The translations under genes were made by a program, and so were the position numbers. Below are positions 1,621 to 60,327 of a stretch of DNA of 64,000 nucleotides, one piece after another. The notes beneath the pieces are model-generated. The model was not told where the DNA came from and did not search any database. It saw nothing but the letters and a program-made list of their open reading frames with translations. How positions within the stretch are numbered: the first letter of the stretch is position 1; each line of letters opens with the position of its first letter. The stretch comes from Naegleria gruberi (lineage: Eukaryota). The stretch lies in assembly GCA_000004985.1 (NCBI GenBank), contig GG738872.1; one strand, written 5' to 3'.

Positions 1621-1681
1621 GCCGACATAGCTCAGTTGGGAGAGCGTAAGACTGAAGATCTTAAGGTCCCTGGTGTCGGCA
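1621..1681 (+). pseudogene. Truncated tRNA-Phe(GAA) copy missing 12 nt of the T-arm (T-stem and TTCGATCC loop).
   Basis: Identical to the intact tRNA-Phe at 60255-60327 over the acceptor, D and anticodon arms. It lacks ttcgatccctgg, so it jumps from ggtccctgg to tgtcggca. Both copies share the flanks agaa|gcc and ca|aattttg. Confidence 0.7.
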
Positions 1682-3493: not shown

Positions 3494-6400
3494 ATGTCTA
3501 ATTTAAAGGATAGAATAGCAGCCTTTGAAAATAGGAATAATACAGGTAGTGGTGGTGCTAGTACAACAAACAATGCTCCTACCTCAAGTAAACCAACAAG
3601 GATTAACGGATCAGAATTAACATCAACTAGTGGTGGTGGCAGTGGTAGTGGCAATGGTCACCCAAGTGGTCGTCCTCTTCCTCCAACTAAAACTACTTCA
3701 AGCAATCCTGTATCAACAACAACAACAACAAACAATGGTAACAATACCACAACTCCAAGAACTCTGCCACCAACACCAACCGATAGAACCTCACTCAATG
3801 TTGGACTGAATAGAACAAATACCACTACCAATAATAATAACACTACTCCTCCAACTGTTAGTCCAAGAATAATAACAACCACACCTACCAATACTACCAA
3901 TACTACACAAGTTGCTGCAGGTAATTCTCAGAATCATCAGCACCACCACCCAACAACAAGCCAGCATCAACCTTCTCCAACCATAAATACCACCCCAACA
4001 ACGCAACAAGAAAATAGCGCAACATTAACTCCAGTATCACCATCTTCATCTCCAACGCAAACACTCACAAGAGTTAATTCTGCTGGACAACAGGACAATC
4101 TTTATGATATGACAAATAATGAGGACGGAAATATGGAGGACGATCCAAGAAGACCGAATGATGTAAATGCTATTCATCAATTGCCAAAAAACAAACCTGC
4201 TGTACCTAAAAAGTTTAGAAATACTCCAGGTACTACAACTACAAATTCAACTTTGGGTAGACCAACACCAAAAGTTCCACCTTCAATTCCACAAGCCAGA
4301 AGAGCTGTTACTTCTTCAGTCACACAAGTCGATCTACCAACTTCAGAAAATGGTTCTGAACCAAACACAACCACAACAAATGTTGATCCAGGTTCTACAA
4401 TCACCTATTCCGATTCATTCAATTCATCAAGAATATCTATTCGTCCATCAGCCAATGGAATGCCTTATGCTTCAGGAATTGTTGGATTAGGCGATAAGCT
4501 CCCACAAGGAAAATTCATTCCTTATGTTCCACCTGAAGTTGAGGATACTGTTGTTAGTAGCTCTCTCACAAAACAAGTTAAACTTTCTATTACATCTGAA
4601 TCAGATGCTGAAACATTGGAATTCCAGGAAATTTACAAACATCCAACTAAAAAACAACAAGATGCTGCTGTTATTCTTCAAAAGTATATCAGAAGATGGG
4701 ATGCTAAAAAGGCCTACAAAAAGATGCAAAAAGCCAGACTTAACAGAGAAAATTGTGCCAAGGAAATTTTGTCAACAGAAAAGTACTATGTTGAATCACT
4801 TAACATTCTTCAAGAAGTTTATCTTAAACCATTCAAAGCTATGGCTGCAAAGGATAAACCATTGATCACCAAGGAAGAAGTCTCTGCTATTTTCTCGGAT
4901 ATTGATGTTATTTTGAACTTTAACAATACATTTTTGAAAGATTTAGAAGAGAGGCTCCAAAACTATGTATACACTGTTACGATCAGTGATATTTTCCTCC
5001 AAATTGCACCTTTCTTTAAAACTTATTCACGATACTGTAACAATTTTGATAAGGCAAATGAAGTCCTCAGGGAATGCAAAAAGAGGGAAGAATTCAAGGA
5101 ACAAGTTTCCAAGATGGATAAGGATAGTAGAACCTCCAAGTTAGGTCTGCAAAGTTATCTTATTCTCCCAATCCAACGTATTCCAAGATATAGATTGCTT
5201 CTCCAAGATTTGATCAAACATTCAGGACCTTCCCATCCCGATTACAAAGGATTGAAATTGGCTCTCGAAAAGATTTGTGAAGTTGCCGATCACTTGAACA
5301 ATACAATGAAGAGTATTGAAGCAACCAATGAAATTATCAAGATTCAATCCCAATTCTATGGTGAATTGAATTTGGTTGAACCTCATAGAAAATTCTTGAA
5401 AGATGGTGCATTGCAAGAAATTGTTTCCGCTGACTTTACCAAAACAAGAGATATCTATGTTCATCTTTTCAATGATATTATTCTCCTTTCACAAAAATCA
5501 GGGAAAACTTTCACCCTCAAACTTCAACTTCCTCTCAATGATTTGATTATTTTCAGCTACCTAAACCAAGAAGATCAAATTGATGACACAATCTTTAAAT
5601 TACAATCACCAAGTAAGGCAATCATCATCAAGACAGCTACACCAGCCGAAAAAAATAGTTGGACCATCACTTTGCACAATTTGATTAATGAATCTAAAAT
5701 TTCCAAGAAGAATAAGACACTCAATGTGGATGTACATACAATTGCTGACGATTCTTCAACTACATTTGCTTTGGCTATGAGTGACAATGATGGTATTGTC
5801 ATTCCACCTGAAGAGTGTATCAGAAGAATGAAGGCTGGTTCTACTATGCTCAAATATTGTCGTACTGGTAAGCCTCACTTTAGAAGATTTGTATTGAGTT
5901 CTGATGAAACTGAACTTATGTGGGGATCCCCTAATAAGCAATCTAACGAATCTATTGTGTCTCTTACTGATGTCAAGAAGATTTGTTACGGCCAAAACAC
6001 AGCAATTTTCCAAAAGTATAAGAATCCTGATCTTGAAGGTCTTTCATTCTCATTATTGTACAGAGATAGAACTTTGGATATTGTATGTAAGGATAAGCAA
6101 GAGTATCACACATGGGTACAAGGTATCACATACTTGTTGTCACACTTGGATTCCATTTTAAAGAAGAAGACTGTTGTCCCAGTTGTTGGAAACGAACCAA
6201 AATTCGCACCAATCACCATCGTCCACGATATGGAAAATGAGAAACAAAAATTCAAGGAACAATTTGAAAGAATTGGTGATGCTTATACATGGGGTCAAGG
6301 TGCTAGTGGTTCACTTGGACACGGAAATCAAGAAGATAAGAAGGAGCCTCTGGTTATGAAGGACTTTTTATATTTGGATGTTTCTATGGTTGCTTGTGAA

Positions 6401-7270
6401 AATTCTGCTGGTGCTGCTGTCATGTTTACAGGAGAATTGTTTACATGGGGCAAAGGAGAAAAAGGTAGATTGGGTCATGGTGATTCTAACGATAGANNNN
6501 NNNNNNNNNNNNNNNNNNNNNNNNNNNNNNNNNNNNNNNNNNNNNNNNNNNNNNNNNNNNNNNNNNNNNNNNNNNNNNNNNNNNNNNNNNNNNNNNNNNN
6601 NNNNNNNNNNNNNNNNNNNNNNNNTCACAATAATACTGAAGAGTATCTTTTACCAACATTTGTAGAAACATTTAGAAATATGCCAGTTAAACAAATTGCT
6701 GCTGGTAGTGCACACAGTGGTTGTATCACAGAAGGAGATGGAGCTGTTTACATGTGGGGAAGTGGTATTTATGGCCAAATTGGTAACAATACTAATACTC
6801 ACGCTTTAACACCAATGAGAGTCAAGTTTGGTAAACTGAAAGCCAAACAACTTGTATGTGGTGTTAATCACGTACTTGTTCTTATGGAAGATGGATCTGT
6901 TTACGGTTGGGGAGCTGGTACTTATGGTAGACTTGGTAATGGTAATGAATCAGATCAACGTGTTCCTGTAAGAATTAATTTCTTTGACGATAAGAATGTT
7001 CGTGGATTGGGAGCTGGTGGCAGTAGTAGTGCTGCTGTTTGTGCTCACCAATGGGTTCCTGATAAGGATGCTGATGATTGTATGAGTTGCAAGTCAAAGT
7101 TTACATTCCTCAGAAGAAGACACCATTGCAGATATTGTGGTGGTATTTTCTGTGGAAGTTGTACTGGTAAAAGAATTACTCTTCTTCGTTTTGGTTTTGA
7201 TGAACCAGTTAGAGTTTGTGACAATTGTTATCAAATTCTTACAAACGCTGCTCAAACCTACAAGAGGTAA
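3494..7270 (+). CDS. RhoGEF (DH-PH) protein with an IQ motif, RCC1 repeats and a C-terminal FYVE zinc finger. About 1258 aa including an in-frame assembly gap.
   Basis: DH-domain hallmarks EKYYVESLNILQEVYLKPF and LILPIQRIPRYRLLLQDLIKH. IQ-like AAVILQKYIRRWDAKKAYKKMQ. At least four RCC1 blades (YTWGQGASGSLGHG, TWGKGEKGRLGHGD, YMWGSGIYGQIGN, YGWGAGTYGRLGNG). FYVE signature WVPDKDADDCMSCKSKF...RRRHHCRYCGGIFCGSC...RVCDNCY. The N-terminal 300 aa are T/N/P-rich low complexity. Confidence 0.8.
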   Translation: MSNLKDRIAAFENRNNTGSGGASTTNNAPTSSKPTRINGSELTSTSGGGSGSGNGHPSGRPLPPTKTTSSNPVSTTTTTNNGNNTTTPRTLPPTPTDRTSLNVGLNRTNTTTNNNNTTPPTVSPRIITTTPTNTTNTTQVAAGNSQNHQHHHPTTSQHQPSPTINTTPTTQQENSATLTPVSPSSSPTQTLTRVNSAGQQDNLYDMTNNEDGNMEDDPRRPNDVNAIHQLPKNKPAVPKKFRNTPGTTTTNSTLGRPTPKVPPSIPQARRAVTSSVTQVDLPTSENGSEPNTTTTNVDPGSTITYSDSFNSSRISIRPSANGMPYASGIVGLGDKLPQGKFIPYVPPEVEDTVVSSSLTKQVKLSITSESDAETLEFQEIYKHPTKKQQDAAVILQKYIRRWDAKKAYKKMQKARLNRENCAKEILSTEKYYVESLNILQEVYLKPFKAMAAKDKPLITKEEVSAIFSDIDVILNFNNTFLKDLEERLQNYVYTVTISDIFLQIAPFFKTYSRYCNNFDKANEVLRECKKREEFKEQVSKMDKDSRTSKLGLQSYLILPIQRIPRYRLLLQDLIKHSGPSHPDYKGLKLALEKICEVADHLNNTMKSIEATNEIIKIQSQFYGELNLVEPHRKFLKDGALQEIVSADFTKTRDIYVHLFNDIILLSQKSGKTFTLKLQLPLNDLIIFSYLNQEDQIDDTIFKLQSPSKAIIIKTATPAEKNSWTITLHNLINESKISKKNKTLNVDVHTIADDSSTTFALAMSDNDGIVIPPEECIRRMKAGSTMLKYCRTGKPHFRRFVLSSDETELMWGSPNKQSNESIVSLTDVKKICYGQNTAIFQKYKNPDLEGLSFSLLYRDRTLDIVCKDKQEYHTWVQGITYLLSHLDSILKKKTVVPVVGNEPKFAPITIVHDMENEKQKFKEQFERIGDAYTWGQGASGSLGHGNQEDKKEPLVMKDFLYLDVSMVACENSAGAAVMFTGELFTWGKGEKGRLGHGDSNDRXXXXXXXXXXXXXXXXXXXXXXXXXXXXXXXXXXXXXXXXXXXHNNTEEYLLPTFVETFRNMPVKQIAAGSAHSGCITEGDGAVYMWGSGIYGQIGNNTNTHALTPMRVKFGKLKAKQLVCGVNHVLVLMEDGSVYGWGAGTYGRLGNGNESDQRVPVRINFFDDKNVRGLGAGGSSSAAVCAHQWVPDKDADDCMSCKSKFTFLRRRHHCRYCGGIFCGSCTGKRITLLRFGFDEPVRVCDNCYQILTNAAQTYKR
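6497..6624. other. Assembly gap: a 128-nt run of N inside the RCC1 region of the RhoGEF gene.
   Basis: Literal n characters in the sequence. The reading frame is preserved across the gap. Confidence 0.95.
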
Positions 7271-9016: not shown

Positions 9017-9136
9017 TGGCTACGGCCATATCACGATGCATGCACCTCATCCCGTCCGATTTGAGAAGTTAAGCATCGTCGAGCCACATCAGTACTGAGG
9101 TTGGAGACAACTTGGGAACCTGTGGTGCTGTAGTCT
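9017..9136 (+). rRNA. 5S ribosomal RNA gene, copy 1.
   Basis: GGCTACGGCCATA...CCCGTCCGAT...AGTACTGAGGTTGGAGACAACTTGGGAACCTGTGGTGCTGTAGTC matches the 5S consensus (helix I pairing, box-A/box-C regions) and is followed by a TTTTT Pol III terminator. About 120 nt. Confidence 0.85.
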
Positions 9137-10832: not shown

Positions 10833-11291
10833 ATGCAATTATTTGTCAAGACACTCACTGGAAGAACTATCACTTTGGAGGTTGAATCTAATGATTCAAT
10901 TGAAAATGTGAAAAGAAAAGTACAAGATAAGGAAGGAATTTCACCAGATCAACAAAGACTCATCTTTGCTGGAAAACAATTGGAAGATGGCAGAACTATT
11001 AATGATTACAACATTCAAAAAGATTCAACTCTTCATTTGGTGTTGAGATTAAGAGGAGGAATGCAACTTTTTGTAAAAACTTTAACTGGAAAGACAATCA
11101 CTATTGAAATGGAATCGAATGATACTGTTGAGAATATGAAACAAAAGATATTTGATAAGGAAGGTATTCCTTCAGATCAACAACGATTGATTTATGCCGG
11201 TAAGCAATTGGAAGATGGAAGAACTATTGGTGATTACAATCTTCAAAAGGATTCAACTGTGCATTTAGTATTGAGATTGAGAGGTGGTTAA
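10833..11291 (+). CDS. Divergent di-ubiquitin: two head-to-tail 76-aa ubiquitin-fold repeats ending in RLRGG then a stop.
   Basis: Repeat 1 is [76 protein letters not shown]. Repeat 2 is more diverged. Both keep K48, K63, the I44 patch and the C-terminal GG, but they differ from canonical ubiquitin at about 11 and 16 positions. Confidence 0.85.
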
Positions 11292-11472: not shown

Positions 11473-11592
11473 GGCTACGGCCATATCATGATGAATGCAC
11501 CTCATCCCGTCCGATTTGAGAAGTTAAGCATCGTCGAGCCACATCAGTACTGAGGTTGGAGACAACTTGGGAACCTGTGGTGCTGTAGTCTT
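11473..11592 (+). rRNA. 5S ribosomal RNA gene, copy 2.
   Basis: Differs from copy 1 at only about 2 positions (atcaTgatgAatg versus atcaCgatgCatg). Followed by TTTTTATTTT. Same orientation as copy 1. Confidence 0.85.
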
Positions 11593-12022
11593 TTTATTTT
11601 TAAAAATTTGTAATATCAAAAAACATTGAGGATTGCCTTTCAACTGTTTAGCTTCATAGGCAGTCTTCATTTCAGATAGAACATATTGAAAGTTCAATAT
11701 TGCTTCAATCTTTTTTAAAAATTTTAACCACAATTATAATAATAGAATTTAAATAAATTGAATACATAGAGATCAGCATTACATGACTCCATAGCAATCA
11801 TACCAATAATCAAAGGACAAAAGGCAACTTATGGGTTTGCGTACTCGATTGCTGTGAAGTGGGTACACAAGCTCAGTTGTCTTTTTTTCCATTCTCTAAT
11901 TTCAATTTCTTTTGCTCCTCCATTCTCATCCCAAATGATGGTAAACTACTACTCGAAAGTGAATAAAAAATTGTAACTTACAAAGATTCCATTCGTTTCC
12001 AAAATGTACAAAACCAAAAAAA

Positions 12023-13379
12023 ATGCTCGAAAAGCCAACCCACACCATTTCACTGATCGGGCAAAAAGGCAGTGGTAAATCAACACTTTTAGGTCAACTA
12101 TTGTATAGGATGGGATATGTTTTCGATGAACAATTAGAAGAAATTTCAAAAACTGCTGATCAATTAGGAAAACCAAATTGTAAATATTCCTTCCTGGTCA
12201 ACACAACCAGAAAGGAGAGGGAATGTGCATCAAGTAGTCAATTATCGTTTAGACAAGTGGAAACTAAAAATTATTTCTGTAATTTAATTGACACACCAGG
12301 TAGGAATTCTTATTTGAATTTATTGAAACATTTTTGGAATATTGAAAGGAATGGCAGTTTATATGAAGAAAACAATTCGTGCATTGGCAATTTCGAATAC
12401 AGTTATTGCAGTAATTGATCCGAGAGAAGTCGAATTCGAAAGGAGCATCAATCGATTTGATGGAATATTGAGACAGTACATGTTTTCTTCCAGAGTTTCC
12501 AATTCACAAATTATTTGTTGTGTCAATTTAATGGATCATCCAGAAGTTAATTATTCAGAGCAAGTCTTTGTGAAAACAGTTAGTGAACTTTCAAACATCT
12601 TGAAAAGAATAGGATGTAGGTCTCCAGTAGATATCATTCCAATTTCTGGTTATTGTGGAGATAATATTGTGGAAATATCTGATAAAACACCATGGTATGA
12701 GGGTAAATGTCTATTGGATGCTTTGAATTCATTGAAACCAACTGCAAATAATCTGGAACAAAGTTTAAGAATTCCAATTTTGGATGTTAAAAAAATAAGT
12801 GGAGTTGGAACAGTTGTTTATGGAAAAGTTGTAGCAGGAATACTAAAAATGGGGTCAAAAATAGTATTGGCTAATTCTAATATTGAAAATGCAAGAATTG
12901 AAGCTATTGAATCATTTGGAAAGCGATTGGAAGAAGCAAAATCTGGTCAACTGGTGGCTATCAACTTGCGTAATGTCTTCCACAGCTCAATCAAATCAGG
13001 AGATGTAATATTAGAGGGGGGGAAATCTACTGGTATTGTAACTCGCTTCTTTGAAGCCTGTATTTTAAATATTGGCCATCCAAACAACATTCATCCAAAT
13101 TACAAGCCTACAATTCAAGTACAGGCTACTCAAGCTACTTGTAAATTGGTTACTATTAAGAAAACCACAACTCCACAAGGGGTTTTGATTGAAAATTCAC
13201 CACGCTTTATTAAGAGAAATGAATTTGGAGTGGTTGAGTGTGAATTAGACAAAGCTTGTTATTTGGATAAGGATGTGTTTTGTAGATTTTATTTCAGAGA
13301 TTTGAGGAAGGTAATAGGATTTGGCTTGATTACTCGTGTTGGAGTTGAACAGCCCGTGGAAAGTGAAAGTAATAAATAA
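12023..13379 (+). CDS. Degenerate EF-1alpha-family (eEF1A/Hbs1-like) GTPase paralog, about 435 aa, with one 49-nt intron at 12300-12348.
   Basis: The N-terminus EKPTHTISLIGQKGSGKSTLLGQLLY aligns to eEF1A EKTHINIVVIGHVDSGKST. DTPG is present, then the intron (GTAGGA...GAAAG, phase 1) joins the two ORF-track frames so the protein reads DTPG-MAVYMKKTIRALAISNTVIAVID. G5 is PISGYCGDN and domain II is GTVVYGKVVAGILKMGSKIV. The catalytic His after DxPG is Met and NKMD is NLMD. Confidence 0.7.
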
Positions 13380-13706
13380 TTAGAACTAATTGTTGGAAAA
13401 AATCATTTCAATAAAACTCTTTCCACCTTATTTACCTGTCGTTATTTGTTTTCCTCACCTCTGAGATTAAATATTGTATTAACGTTAGAAATTTTATTGA
13501 ATACTGAATTAAATTCAATCTGATATCATTCAATGTATGTTATACTTTAAGGAGCTAATTTAAACTGATAAGGATTAAGCTATATTGGCTACTAGTTGTC
13601 TACTTTGAATTTGTTGACAGAGTTGTATAGCTTTGGTTGTGTTCCTTTTTTTGAGGCTTTTTCCAAGTTGTAAAATACTTCTAATTCCTCTAGGTTTTTC
13701 ATGGGG

Positions 13707-14880
13707 TCATTCATAAACGTAAATGAAAGTATCATGAGCAACAAACAATCTTCCAGTAAATCTATCAAGACAAAGACCTGACGAGCCATGGGGTAATTTC
13801 TTTTTCAAAATTAACTTTCCATCTCTATCAATAACAAATGCCTTGAATTTACCAAATGCAGGATTAATAATGAAATATATCAATCCAGATAGTCTATCCA
13901 TATCAATGAAATCCACTAATGATCCAGGTTGTTCAAAAATTATTTCTTGTTTCCATTCTCCATTCACATATTCGAATCGTTCAATATTCCTGTCAATCAT
14001 TACGAAAAATGAATTCTCAGCCAAACGATCCACACATATAGAACCACTCAACCATTGAGGACTCATATCATATTTGGTAAGAGAGCTTCCAGTTGTTGCA
14101 TCATAAAACCTTACGGAATTAGAATCCACTGAAACTACTCTCTTTCCTTCAAGCATTAAAACATTAATTCCCTTATCTGAATGATAACCCTCAACTTTCC
14201 ATAATGGATTGCACTTCCCCTTCGTTTCAATAAATTCCCTTAAATCGTATTTTACAATGTGTTGTGAATGATTGTTTATCAGTGCATCAAATCCTCGTCC
14301 ATTATAATTTTCCTCAATTGTAAAACAAGAAACCTTCTTTCCATGTGAAATGATGTAACTTTTGTAATTTGTTACTTGGTCAATTATCATAAAACTATAT
14401 CTCGTCAATGCTATTAAACAAGAGCATTGCTTTGATAGTTTAACATCATAGAGAGGCTCAAAAGTTTCCTCAAAATATTGCCTACAATCAATTGTAGAAA
14501 TTAAATTAAAATTATTGGAGAATGGTGCTAAATGTTTTTCCCTGAATTTTTGTTGCAGCTTTGGTAAAAAGTTGCTCCGAACCATCATCAACAACAAGAT
14601 TATTCTTTTTGGAACTGTGTGGAACAAAATCAATCAGCTGAATGTGTTGCGGCATTTTTTTAACCAACTTTCCAGTAAGATTGGTTTTTACAATATTGGT
14701 CAACTGAAGATTCTTAGAATCATAAAGATTAATTTGAATATTGAGCTCAGGTTTGATTTCAACAATTCTTGGCGTTTCAAATAAAACACTATCTCTTTTG
14801 TAAACACAAGGAAAATGTTCGAGTTTTACTCGGAGAGAATGGGAACGAATCAAACTCCTAAAACCCTTTTGAACATGCAA
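13707..14880 (-). CDS. Hypothetical protein encoded in two overlapping frame segments (13707-14633 and 14512-14880). The junction and true N-terminus are unresolved (intron or frameshift).
   Basis: Two long minus-strand ORFs overlap by about 120 nt in different frames. Upstream of 14880 the frame hits a stop, with no in-frame ATG until the M in KKMPQHIQL. No confident domain; possibly a beta-propeller-like fold. Confidence 0.3.
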
Positions 14881-27011: not shown

Positions 27012-27084
27012 GCCCGTCTAGCTCAGTCGGTAGAGCGCAAGGCTCTTAACCTTGTGGTCGTGGGTTCGACCCCCACGGTGGGCG
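27012..27084 (+). tRNA. tRNA-Lys (anticodon CTT).
   Basis: 73-nt cloverleaf GCCCGTCTAGCTCAGTCGGTAGAGCGCAAGGCTCTTAACCTTGTGGTCGTGGGTTCGACCCCCACGGTGGGCG. Anticodon loop CTCTTAA. A T-run lies just downstream. Confidence 0.9.
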
Positions 27085-37223: not shown

Positions 37224-37297
37224 TACCGACAATGGGGCTCGAACCCACGACCCCAGGATTAGAAGTCCTGTGCTCTATCCAACTGAGCTATGACGGC
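37224..37297 (-). tRNA. tRNA-Arg (anticodon TCT).
   Basis: Minus-strand sequence GCCGTCATAGCTCAGTTGGATAGAGCACAGGACTTCTAATCCTGGGGTCGTGGGTTCGAGCCCCATTGTCGGTA with anticodon loop CTTCTAA. There is one T-T mismatch in the acceptor stem. A T-run lies downstream on the minus strand. Confidence 0.8.
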
Positions 37298-60254: not shown

Positions 60255-60327
60255 GCCGACATAGCTCAGTTGGGAGAGCGTAAGACTGAAGATCTTAAGG
60301 TCCCTGGTTCGATCCCTGGTGTCGGCA
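60255..60327 (+). tRNA. tRNA-Phe (anticodon GAA), intact.
   Basis: 73-nt cloverleaf GCCGACATAGCTCAGTTGGGAGAGCGTAAGACTGAAGATCTTAAGGTCCCTGGTTCGATCCCTGGTGTCGGCA. Anticodon loop ACTGAAGAT. A TTTT tract lies downstream. Confidence 0.9.

What the first reader, a model, noticed from the sequence alone, without database searches (positions are those of the whole stretch)
12023..13379. EF-1alpha-family paralog that has lost its catalytic residues (candidate pseudo-GTPase; Ski7/Hbs1-like or novel)
Once spliced across the 49-nt intron at 12300-12348, the protein aligns end to end with eEF1A (P-loop GSGKST, DTPG, G5 PISGYCGDN, beta-barrel domain II). The His after DxPG, which positions the hydrolytic water in every translational GTPase, is Met here (DTPGM). 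Switch I RGITID is replaced by RECASSSQ. NKMD is NLMD, losing the Lys that contacts guanine. It is short at the N-terminus like eEF1A, not Hbs1/eRF3. A translational-GTPase fold kept but probably unable to hydrolyse GTP is the Ski7 situation in yeast. Such paralogs are sparsely described outside fungi.
Basis: partly seen in the sequence, partly recalled or inferred. Interest (0 to 1): 0.62.

Follow-up and report, generated by a model that had tools for sequence, protein, structure and literature searches.

The report
Catalytically degenerate EF-1alpha paralog in Naegleria
This is a real, spliced and evolutionarily maintained gene of a Naegleria amoeba, one of that genus's many divergent copies of translation factor EF-1alpha; it keeps the residues that hold GTP but has lost those that cleave it, so it probably no longer works as an elongation factor.

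Summary
The window is from a Naegleria of the gruberi group. Orthologs in three other lineages keep the ORF, the intron position and the degenerate motifs, with dN/dS 0.26-0.32 (p about 1e-12), so it is not a decaying pseudogene. Residues that bind Mg-GTP survive: GxxxxGKST, the switch-I Thr/Ser, DxxG, and the N and D of NKxD. The catalytic set is gone: His is Met or Ser, and the P-loop H-V-D and most of switch II are replaced. Sequence, profile and fold comparisons place it with a/eEF1A, not Hbs1, eRF3, Ski7 or EFL. It has no N-terminal extension, and N. gruberi has separate Hbs1 and eRF3. Its nearest relative is a second, differently degenerate N. gruberi paralog. The expansion of highly divergent eEF1A copies in N. 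gruberi is already catalogued (Atkinson 2015). Similar His-less paralogs occur in Anaeramoeba, Tetrahymena and Stentor. Most likely it is a GTP-binding, hydrolysis-dead EF1A-fold protein with a non-elongation role. That role is unknown.

The parts
12023..12299 (+). Exon 1 (residues 1-92 plus the first base of Gly93): N-terminus MLEKPT, P-loop, switch I, and the start of G3
   Evidence: the start aligns with residue 1 of aEF1A; no upstream coding extension, since a 5S rRNA gene ends at 11591
12300..12348 (+). 49-nt GT..AG spliceosomal intron, phase 1, inside the Gly codon of DxxG
   Evidence: same position and GTAGGAAT...AAAG ends in L001 and L002, where it is 52 nt; read-through meets a stop at 12418
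12349..13379 (+). Exon 2 (residues 93-435 plus the stop codon): rest of the G domain, domain II and domain III
12059..12085 (+). G1 P-loop GQKGSGKST. The GxxxxGK[ST] pattern is kept, but the canonical H-V-D (hydrophobic-gate Val, monovalent-cation Asp) is replaced by Q-K-G
   Evidence: it is GQ[KT]GSGKST in all four orthologs
12215..12244 (+). Degenerate switch I, ERECASSSQL, in place of ERERGITID(I/L). The Thr position is Ser here and Thr in the orthologs
12290..12353 (+). G3 DTPG-M, interrupted by the intron. DxxG is kept; the catalytic His is Met (Ser in L001)
12525..12536 (+). G4 NLMD. The Asn and the guanine-specifying Asp are kept; the Lys is Leu
   Evidence: conserved in window, L001 and L002
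12645..12653 (+). G5 S-G-Y (S-A-Y in the orthologs)
12750..13025 (+). Domain II beta-barrel (about residues 227-318). It has the lowest dN/dS of the five segments in the window-L002 comparison (0.19), though not in L001-L002. Aminoacyl-pocket equivalents are altered (QDVY to LDVK, GDNVGF to GQLVAI)
13026..13343 (+). Domain III (about residues 319-424)

Best explanation
The gene encodes a member of the Naegleria-lineage expansion of EF-1alpha paralogs. The protein keeps the three-domain EF1A fold and the residues that bind Mg-GTP. It has lost the machinery that translational GTPases use to hydrolyse GTP on the ribosome: the catalytic His, the P-loop Asp and Val, the switch-I Ile, most of switch II, and the QTREH motif. 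Several residues equivalent to the aminoacyl-tRNA pocket are also changed. It therefore most likely acts as a stable GTP binder held in the closed, 'active-like' conformation, or as a very slow switch. It would then serve as a binding or adaptor protein, not as the elongation factor, which one of the canonical eEF1A copies must be. Shown here: gene structure, fold, motif states, conservation under purifying selection, and family placement. Inferred: GTP binding without hydrolysis, loss of aa-tRNA delivery, and a non-elongation role. The partner and the cellular process are unknown.
For: Gene model and motifs. The organism is Naegleria: the closest hit with an organism name is a N. gruberi predicted protein, and the two closer hits are unnamed metagenome sequences. 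Four lineages (window, L001, L002, N. gruberi P0002) share the exon-1 P-loop, switch-I and DTP states; the three with DNA also share an intact ORF, the intron position and NLMD. dN/dS is 0.26 (window-L002) and 0.32 (L001-L002) at dS about 0.25. The Fisher test of non-synonymous against synonymous changes gives p=1.7e-12 and 6.9e-10. The flanks of window and L002 are unalignable at 43-49% identity. Of 83 positions near-invariant in 16 canonical a/eEF1A sequences, only 44 are kept. The losses cluster in the P-loop H-V-D, switch I, His94, switch II, QTREH, Lys153 and Tyr240, while G13, G18, K19, S20, T21, D90, G93 and N152 are kept. The Asp of NKxD (D155) is seen directly in the sequence and alignments. 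The AF2 model (pLDDT 82, pTM 0.82) superposes on GTP-form aEF1A (3VMF, 3WXM; TM 0.86-0.87) and on ribosome-bound eEF1A (TM 0.85), but poorly on GDP forms (TM about 0.45). Family placement: PDB phmmer gives aEF1A 174-256 bits (A. pernix highest), eEF1A 193-203, eRF3 123-134, Hbs1 83-132. HMMs built here give aEF1A 301, eEF1A 291, EFL 251, eRF3/Hbs1 244. It is sister to a second degenerate N. gruberi paralog, P0172, in 198 of 200 NJ bootstraps, and the two share MLEKPT and CLLDA[LI]NSLK. Precedent: Ski7 has Ser for the catalytic His and Thr for the gate Val, and the authors' data favour a stable GTP binder (PMC4509514). The Naegleria orthologs have Met or Ser, and Lys or Thr, at the same two positions. 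N. gruberi is listed with 12 eEF1A plus 1 'aEF1A' and no EFL, so a canonical factor is available (PMC4342817).
Against: There are no expression, splicing or biochemical data. Leu for Lys in NKxD, and Gly for the P-loop Asp, could weaken nucleotide binding enough to give a nucleotide-free scaffold. Kowalinski et al. could not exclude cofactor-dependent hydrolysis for Ski7, and the same caveat applies here. AF2 tends to return the closed state whatever the nucleotide, so the conformational match is weak evidence. dN/dS of about 0.3 shows constraint but does not say on what. The L001 lineage has near-neutral change in residues 93-223 relative to the window (omega 0.8-1.0). L002 may be a paralog and not an ortholog, because its flanks do not align. 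The NJ sister relation of two long branches may be partly long-branch attraction.
Confidence: 0.6

Rival explanations
1. It is an untranscribed, decaying duplicate (pseudogene) of eEF1A.
For: It is only 29-34% identical to any a/eEF1A. It keeps 44 of 83 near-invariant positions. The catalytic residues are gone. The N. gruberi GenBank model skips residues 93-162. Residues 93-160 have omega 0.7-0.8 on the L001 lineage.
Against: The 435-aa ORF is intact in three independent assemblies, and the N. gruberi model matches it over the parts it covers. Splice sites are conserved, and the intron length changes by 3 nt without breaking the frame. dN/dS is 0.26-0.32 with p about 1e-12, while the flanks are scrambled. 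The nucleotide-binding residues are selectively retained.
Confidence: 0.05
2. It is still a working GTPase switch, possibly a specialised elongation or rescue factor, that uses non-canonical active-site residues or a cofactor supplied in trans. This is the first of the two Ski7 scenarios.
For: G1, DxxG, the N and D of G4, G5 and the switch-I Thr/Ser are all conserved, which is what a cycling G protein needs. The whole three-domain ribosome-factor architecture is kept. Kowalinski et al. leave this option open for Ski7.
Against: The residue at the His position is Met in two lineages and Ser in one, so it is not conserved, and Met cannot position a water. The monovalent-cation Asp is Gly, and both hydrophobic-gate residues are replaced. 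Switch II, QTREH and the aminoacyl-pocket equivalents are altered.
Confidence: 0.15
3. It is a nucleotide-free scaffold: the G domain no longer binds guanine nucleotide and the protein works only through the surfaces of domains II and III.
For: K153L removes the NKxD lysine. The P-loop is altered at 3 of 9 positions. In the window-L002 comparison domain II has the lowest dN/dS of the five segments (0.19).
Against: Conservation of GxxxxGKST, DxxG, N..D, the G5 Ser and the switch-I Thr/Ser across four lineages is hard to explain if nothing is bound. Exon 1, which carries the P-loop and switch I, has omega 0.19-0.26.
Confidence: 0.15
4. It is of archaeal origin, either a horizontally acquired or an anciently retained aEF1A, and not a Naegleria duplicate of eEF1A.
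For: The best PDB match is A. pernix aEF1A (256 bits, 34% identity) against 203 bits and 29% for mammalian eEF1A. A Hodarchaeota aEF1A is among the top library hits. The aEF1A HMM scores 10 bits above the eEF1A HMM. Atkinson's table lists one 'aEF1A' in N. gruberi.
Against: NJ bootstraps group it with A. pernix to the exclusion of eEF1A in only 5 of 200, against 117 of 200 for a eukaryote-side placement. It is sister to another N. gruberi paralog that shows no archaeal lean. It has the eukaryote-type Ser in GxxxSGKST. It carries a spliceosomal intron and sits among ordinary eukaryotic genes. Absence of the 12-aa insertion is uninformative, because plant eEF1A lacks it too.
Confidence: 0.05

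Closest known systems
Canonical eEF1A / archaeal aEF1A (EF1 subfamily of translational GTPases)
   Same: The length is similar (435 aa). There is no N-terminal extension. It has the G domain plus domains II and III. The alignment is end to end, and these are the best sequence, profile and fold matches.
   Different: Identity is only 29-34%. The catalytic His, the P-loop H-V-D, most of switch I and II, QTREH, the NKxD Lys and the pocket Tyr are replaced, and 39 of 83 near-invariant positions are lost. dN/dS is about 0.3.
The N. gruberi expansion of divergent eEF1A copies (Atkinson 2015, BMC Genomics 16:78; also bioRxiv 10.64898/2026.02.23.705090)
   Same: The N. gruberi ortholog (P0002) and the sister paralog NAEGRDRAFT_60950 (P0172) are N. 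gruberi proteins. The paper lists 12 eEF1A plus 1 'aEF1A' and calls them highly divergent.
   Different: Those surveys count copies. They do not describe motif states, selection or orthology across Naegleria lineages, and the GenBank model of the ortholog looks mis-spliced.
S. cerevisiae Ski7 C-terminal GTPase-like region
   Same: It is a translational-GTPase fold in which the catalytic His is replaced (Ser in Ski7; Met or Ser here) and the gate Val is replaced (Thr in Ski7; Lys or Thr here), while the nucleotide-binding motifs are kept. The Ski7 authors' data favour a stable GTP binder in the active-like conformation.
   Different: Ski7 descends from Hbs1 and has a long N-terminal region that binds the exosome and the Ski complex. 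This protein is nearer to a/eEF1A than to Hbs1 and has no such region.
Divergent EF-1alpha that co-occurs with EFL (Kamikawa et al. 2013, BMC Evol Biol 13:131)
   Same: These are fast-evolving EF-1alpha copies thought to have given up elongation and kept auxiliary roles.
   Different: In those cases the working factor is EFL. No EFL is listed for N. gruberi, so here the backup is other eEF1A copies.
His-less EF1A-like paralogs of Anaeramoeba flamelloides, Tetrahymena thermophila and Stentor coeruleus
   Same: They are about 430-450 aa, have no N-terminal extension, and show DTPG followed by R, D or N in place of His, with altered P-loops.
   Different: They are 28-32% identical to the query and lean to eEF1A in pairwise scores. 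No specific relationship to the Naegleria proteins was shown. They are probably independent losses.

Membership tests
EF1 (a/eEF1A-type) translational GTPase family | Three-domain architecture: GTP_EFTU, domain 2 and domain 3 | tested here: met
   Pfam PF00009, PF03144, PF03143 and PF22594 are all above their cut-offs. The AF2 model has TM 0.85-0.87 to aEF1A and eEF1A.
EF1 (a/eEF1A-type) translational GTPase family | Closer to a/eEF1A than to the sister subfamilies eRF3, Hbs1 and EFL | tested here: met
   PDB phmmer gives 174-256 bits against 83-134. HMMs built here give 291-301 against 244-251.
EF1 (a/eEF1A-type) translational GTPase family | Canonical catalytic set: GHVDxGKST, RGITI, DxPGH, NKxD | tested here: not met
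   The motifs are GQKGSGKST, CASSS, DTPGM and NLMD. It is therefore a family member by descent and fold, but not a canonical enzyme.
EF1 (a/eEF1A-type) translational GTPase family | GTP-dependent delivery of aminoacyl-tRNA to the ribosome | not testable with these tools
   Only indirect evidence exists: pocket and switch-II equivalents are altered.
Ski7 | Descent from Hbs1, with Hbs1 as the closest relative | tested here: not met
   Hbs1 scores 83-132 bits against 203-256 for a/eEF1A. NJ places the protein away from the cluster I provisionally labelled eRF3/Hbs1.
Ski7 | N-terminal region that binds the exosome and the Ski complex | tested here: not met
   The P-loop starts at residue 13. A 5S rRNA gene lies about 430 bp upstream, and the start aligns with residue 1 of aEF1A.
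Ski7 | Catalytic His replaced while the GTP-binding motifs are retained | tested here: met
   The residue is Met or Ser at the His position, and G1, DxxG, N..D and G5 are kept. This is a functional resemblance only.
Hbs1 / eRF3 | N-terminal extension plus intact GTPase motifs; partner of Pelota or eRF1 | tested here: not met
   There is no extension and the motifs are degenerate. N. gruberi is listed with separate Hbs1 and eRF3. Partner binding is not testable here.
EFL | Best match to EFL sequences | tested here: not met
   An HMM built from the cluster I provisionally labelled EFL (identity not checked) scores 251 bits against 291-301 for a/eEF1A.
Pseudo-GTPase (GTPase fold without catalytic competence) | The fold is retained, the catalytic residues are lost, and the gene is under selection | tested here: met
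Pseudo-GTPase (GTPase fold without catalytic competence) | Demonstrated lack of GTP hydrolysis, and known nucleotide-binding status | not testable with these tools
   This needs recombinant protein.
Archaeal aEF1A acquired by horizontal transfer | Nests within archaeal sequences in a phylogeny | tested here: not met
   Only 5 of 200 NJ bootstraps group it with A. pernix to the exclusion of eEF1A.
Giant-virus translational GTPase (endogenised viral gene) | Closest relatives are viral | tested here: not met
   No relative was found in IMG/VR. The best BFVD matches are 13-18% identical GTPBP1-like proteins.

The most novel reading that the evidence does not exclude
EF1A-fold proteins that bind GTP but cannot hydrolyse it may have arisen repeatedly in free-living protists, with at least two in Naegleria and others in Anaeramoeba, Tetrahymena and Stentor. 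They would then form an unrecognised functional class of trGTPase-derived pseudoenzymes. Possible roles are non-cycling ribosome or tRNA/tRNA-mimic binders that regulate or protect translation, as opposed to cytoskeletal moonlighters or evolutionary debris.
Probability: 0.15. Interest if true: 0.7.

Novelty: new member of a known kind. Interest (0 to 1): 0.4.

Why it matters
Translational GTPases are among the most conserved proteins, and Ski7 is one of the few studied cases in which one has lost its catalytic His and still has a cellular role. Here an eEF1A-type copy, not an Hbs1-type one, has lost the whole catalytic set while keeping the nucleotide-binding set, and it is held under purifying selection. 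A sister paralog is degenerate in a different way, and there are look-alikes in other protists. This gives a concrete, clonable candidate for asking what an EF1A fold does when it can no longer hydrolyse GTP. It also points to a probably wrong gene model in the N. gruberi reference. The value is limited: the gene family expansion is already catalogued and no function can be assigned from sequence.

Tried and rejected
1. I first took the 12-aa insertion missing after PWY.G as a sign of pre-eukaryotic or archaeal origin. I rejected this because plant eEF1A and most other hits also lack it. From my own recollection it is an opisthokont signature.

2. Sites that discriminate eEF1A from aEF1A gave only 4 usable positions (2 eukaryote-like, 1 archaeal-like), which is too few.

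3. I searched for more orthologs. JGI metagenomes gave nothing above 32% identity and IMG/VR gave nothing. The 1.84-billion-protein representative library had only the Naegleria cluster above about 35%. No protein named as N. fowleri or N. lovaniensis appeared among the close hits.

4. The word-index searches returned mostly bacterial CysN/CysC at 24-31% identity. This reflects how candidates are picked, not a relationship.

5. The look-up of the N. gruberi locus for P0002 failed because it is not on record, so the skipped segment in that model could not be checked on DNA.

7. Giant-virus origin was rejected.

8. Cluster look-ups of 30 divergent hits, made to find more Naegleria paralogs, found only P0172. 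The others were Anaeramoeba, ciliate, plant, nematode or unnamed environmental sequences.

9. I could not retrieve the canonical N. gruberi eEF1A sequence. The test 'recent duplicate of the resident eEF1A' therefore rests on NJ with foreign eEF1As only.
Full report
**Observation**

The region 11500-14000 holds two adjacent + strand ORFs, 12023-12418 and 12342-13379. Removing 12300-12348 (49 nt, GTAGG...GAAAG) joins them in frame. The result is a 1308-nt CDS and a 435-aa protein. Without splicing, translation ends at 12418.

Pfam finds GTP_EFTU, GTP_EFTU_D2 and GTP_EFTU_D3/GTP-eEF1A_C, all above their curated cut-offs. phmmer against PDB sequences aligns residues 1-423 with archaeal and eukaryotic EF-1alpha.

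- GHVD(H/S)GKST becomes GQKGSGKST.
- ERERGITID becomes ERECASSSQ.
- DAPGH becomes DTPGM.
- NKMD becomes NLMD.
- The G5 serine is kept (PISGY).

**Organism and context**

The window is 66% A+T. The closest hit that carries an organism name is a Naegleria gruberi 'predicted protein' (P0002, 82% identity over the part it covers). Two unnamed sequences from one ENA metagenome are closer (P0001 at 93%, P0003 at 86%).

The neighbourhood looks like ordinary eukaryotic chromosome:

- two 5S rRNA genes and a di-ubiquitin ORF lie upstream;
- a RhoGEF-RCC1-FYVE protein, an alpha-amylase, a MACPF protein, an FGGY kinase, a MatE transporter and a protein kinase lie nearby.

The metagenome contig L001 shares the downstream order: EF1A-like gene, an unannotated gene of about 310 aa on the opposite strand, then alpha-amylase.

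**Is the gene alive?**

I rebuilt the spliced CDS in L001 and L002. Both have the same start (ATGCTCGA) and the same intron position inside the Gly codon of DxxG. Both keep the GTAGGAAT...AAAG ends, with an intron of 52 nt instead of 49, and both have intact ORFs of 434-435 codons.

Nei-Gojobori estimates are:

| Pair | dN/dS | dS |
|---|---|---|
| window-L002 | 0.26 | 0.26 |
| L001-L002 | 0.32 | 0.25 |
| window-L001 | 0.55 | 0.055 (few changes) |

Non-synonymous changes are depleted relative to synonymous ones, with Fisher p=1.7e-12 and 6.9e-10 for the two diverged pairs. The 5' and 3' flanks of window and L002 are only 43-49% identical, which is effectively unalignable. All five segments of the protein have omega 0.19-0.30 in the window-L002 comparison.

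With N. gruberi P0002 there are four distinct lineages, 85-96% identical over the shared parts. All four carry GQ[KT]GSGKST, ERE[CF]AS[ST]SQ and DTP. NLMD is seen in the three with complete data.

The residue after DTPG is Met (window, L002) or Ser (L001). That position has no conserved identity, and it is never His. No nearby alternative acceptor restores a His (sequence). A decaying pseudogene is therefore very unlikely.

**What is kept and what is lost**

I compared the protein with 16 canonical eEF1A and aEF1A sequences. Of 83 positions near-invariant in them, 44 are retained.

Retained:
- G13, G18, K19, S20 and T21 of the P-loop;
- D90, P92 and G93 of G3;
- N152 of G4, together with D155 of G4 (D155 is read directly from the sequence and alignments);
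- the G5 serine.

At the position of the Mg-coordinating switch-I Thr, the window has Ser and the three other lineages have Thr.

Lost:
- H14, V15 and D16 of the P-loop. From established knowledge of EF-Tu and eIF5B, the Val is half of the hydrophobic gate and the Asp holds the monovalent cation needed for catalysis;
- G69 and I72 of switch I;
- the catalytic H94;
- most of switch II (D96, N100, M101, T103, G104);
- the QTREH motif;
- K153;
- Y240, and the Asn of GDNVGF in domain II.

From what I recall of EF-Tu ternary-complex structures, the last two line the aminoacyl-end pocket. I recalled that mapping and did not compute it.

The pattern is therefore 'binding set kept, catalytic set gone'.

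**Fold**

AlphaFold2, run with a shallow 9-sequence alignment, gives pLDDT 82 and pTM 0.82 and all three domains. Foldseek against the PDB ranks the matches as follows:

| Target | TM-score |
|---|---|
| GTP-form A. pernix aEF1A, in complex with aRF1 or aPelota (3VMF, 3WXM) | 0.86-0.87 |
| Ribosome-bound eEF1A | 0.85 |
| GDP-form structures | about 0.45 |

The model is thus in the closed, active-like arrangement. I give this little weight, because AF2 often returns that state.

**Which subfamily?**

PDB phmmer bit scores:

| Target | Bits |
|---|---|
| A. pernix aEF1A | 256 |
| S. solfataricus aEF1A | 218 |
| Mammalian eEF1A | 203 |
| Yeast eEF1A | 193 |
| Pyrococcus aEF1A | 174 |
| eRF3 | 123-134 |
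| Hbs1 | 83-132 |
| CysN | 91 |
| EF-Tu | about 56 |

I built HMMs from reference clusters taken from the 150 best representative hits. The aEF1A and eEF1A sets were checked by identity to PDB sequences. The 'eRF3/Hbs1' and 'EFL' labels are provisional, from motifs, N-terminal extensions and NJ clustering. The scores were aEF1A 301, eEF1A 291, EFL 251 and eRF3/Hbs1 244.

The protein starts 12 residues before the P-loop and aligns from residue 1 of aEF1A, so it has no N-terminal extension. Atkinson's survey lists separate Hbs1 and eRF3 genes in N. gruberi. It is therefore an a/eEF1A-type protein, not an Hbs1-, eRF3- or Ski7-type one. The Ski7 comparison is about mechanism only.

**Archaeal lean**

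The highest score is to a crenarchaeal aEF1A, and an Asgard aEF1A is among the top library hits. I checked whether this reflects origin.

- The missing 12-aa insertion is uninformative, because plant eEF1A lacks it too.
- Discriminating sites are too few to decide.
- In 200 NJ bootstraps the Naegleria clade groups with A. pernix to the exclusion of eEF1A 5 times. It falls on the eukaryotic side, excluding all aEF1A, 117 times.
- The HMM difference is only 10 bits.
- The gene has a spliceosomal intron.
- Its sister is another N. gruberi protein with no archaeal lean.

I treat the origin as most likely a Naegleria-lineage duplicate of eEF1A, but not settled. The single 'aEF1A' that Atkinson's HMMs call in N. 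gruberi may be this gene's ortholog. That is an inference, because the supplement gives no accession map.

**Relatives**

In the 1.84-billion-protein representative library, only the Naegleria cluster is above about 35% identity. Everything else is 25-36%. No close relative appears in JGI metagenomes or in IMG/VR. The best giant-virus structural matches are 13-18% identical.

The NJ sister, in 198 of 200 bootstraps, is N. gruberi NAEGRDRAFT_60950 (P0172). It is 29% identical and shares the MLEKPT start and CLLDA[LI]NSLK. It is degenerate in other ways: GQANSGKTT, DAPAN and NKME.

Many of the other best hits are also EF1A-like proteins of about 430 aa that lack the His. Examples are:
- Tetrahymena thermophila, DTPGD;
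- Stentor coeruleus, DTPGN;
- Anaeramoeba flamelloides, DTPGR in two proteins and VPGL in one.

These lean toward eEF1A in pairwise scores. I found no evidence that they form one family with the Naegleria proteins.

**Literature**

- Atkinson 2015 (PMC4342817) states that N. gruberi has 'several versions of eEF1A and eEF2' that are 'often highly divergent'. Additional file 2 lists 37 trGTPases for it, including 12 eEF1A, 1 aEF1A, 9 eEF2, eRF3 and Hbs1, and no EFL.
- A 2026 preprint also flags the EF-1alpha orthogroup as expanded in N. gruberi.
- Kamikawa 2013 argues that divergent EF-1alpha copies co-occurring with EFL keep only auxiliary roles.
- Kowalinski 2015 shows that Ski7 has Ser for the catalytic His and Thr for the gate Val. 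It binds GTP in the active-like conformation, and the authors' data favour a stable GTP binder.
- A search for 'pseudoGTPase' together with 'eEF1A' found nothing.

**Mechanism, with the level of support for each step**

- Shown: a spliced, conserved, three-domain EF1A-fold protein under purifying selection, with the binding motifs kept and the catalytic motifs lost.
- Inferred, moderate confidence: it binds Mg-GTP and cannot hydrolyse it at a useful rate, so it stays in the closed conformation, by analogy with Ski7.
- Inferred, moderate confidence: it does not deliver aa-tRNA, because switch II, QTREH and the pocket equivalents are altered. A canonical eEF1A copy does that job.
- Speculative: it acts as a non-cycling binder of a ribosomal, tRNA-like or cytoskeletal partner.

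The rivals are a pseudogene, a still-active non-canonical switch, a nucleotide-free scaffold, and archaeal origin. They are scored in their own section of this report.

**Verdict**

The finding is real and correctly read at the sequence level. It is one member of an already catalogued Naegleria expansion, and it is not Ski7- or Hbs1-like by descent. What this analysis adds:
- evidence for purifying selection on the gene;
- the 'binding set kept, catalytic set lost' pattern;
- the retained switch-I Thr/Ser;
- the sister paralog;
- the likely mis-modelled N. gruberi ortholog.

Interest is moderate.

Noticed in passing
window 9018-9136 and 11473-11591 (+); ORF 10833-11291 (+): Two 5S rRNA genes, 117 of 119 bases identical, sit in a 153-bp block of 94% identity and flank a di-ubiquitin ORF of 152 aa. 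The second 5S gene ends about 430 bp upstream of the EF1A-like start codon.
   Followed up: partly
N. gruberi protein P0002 compared with window residues 93-162 and the C-terminus: The GenBank/JGI model of the N. gruberi ortholog jumps from DTP straight to EQVFVK, skipping about 70 residues that include switch II and G4. It also reads past the stop seen in the window, L001 and L002 into an unrelated tail of about 100 aa. This is probably a mis-spliced model, but decay of that segment in strain NEG-M cannot be excluded without the DNA.
   Followed up: partly
L001 codons 93-223, compared with window 12349-12740: Between the two closest lineages (window and L001), changes pile up in residues 93-223. 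There are 22 non-synonymous against 7 synonymous changes (omega 0.8-1.0), while domains II and III hardly change. The segment overlaps the part skipped in the N. gruberi model.
   Followed up: no
protein P0172 (N. gruberi NAEGRDRAFT_60950): A second N. gruberi EF1A-like paralog of 445 aa is the NJ sister of the query. It is degenerate in different ways: GQANSGKTT, DAPAN (both the DxxG Gly and the His lost) and NKME (guanine-specifying Asp replaced by Glu).
   Followed up: partly
proteins P0119, P0122, P0124, P0126, P0156 and unnamed environmental hits: EF1A-like proteins of about 430-450 aa without the catalytic His occur in Anaeramoeba flamelloides (several), Tetrahymena thermophila and Stentor coeruleus, and in many unnamed metagenome or Logan sequences. 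This hints at recurrent loss of catalysis in protist eEF1A paralogs.
   Followed up: partly
window 13707-14633 (-) and L001 2090-3037 (-): An ORF of 308 aa with no Pfam match lies tail to tail with the EF1A-like gene. L001 has a 315-aa gene with no Pfam hit on record in the same position, followed in both by an alpha-amylase gene.
   Followed up: no
window 6497-6624: A run of 128 N (an assembly gap) lies inside the long RhoGEF-PH-RCC1-FYVE ORF at 3494-7270.
   Followed up: no
window 1621-1681 (+): Rfam reports a short tRNA match (61 nt, 48 bits) that ARAGORN does not call. The other three tRNAs (Lys-CTT at 27012, Arg-TCT at 37224, Phe-GAA at 60255) are found by both tools.
   Followed up: no
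protein P0256 (467 aa; JGI, Logan and ENA, 22 member sequences): The profile search pulled in a canonical-looking eEF1A with all motifs intact, of unknown organism. It has an unusually long insertion after the PWYKG position (GWEAVEAKPKSEKKNSGK).
   Followed up: no
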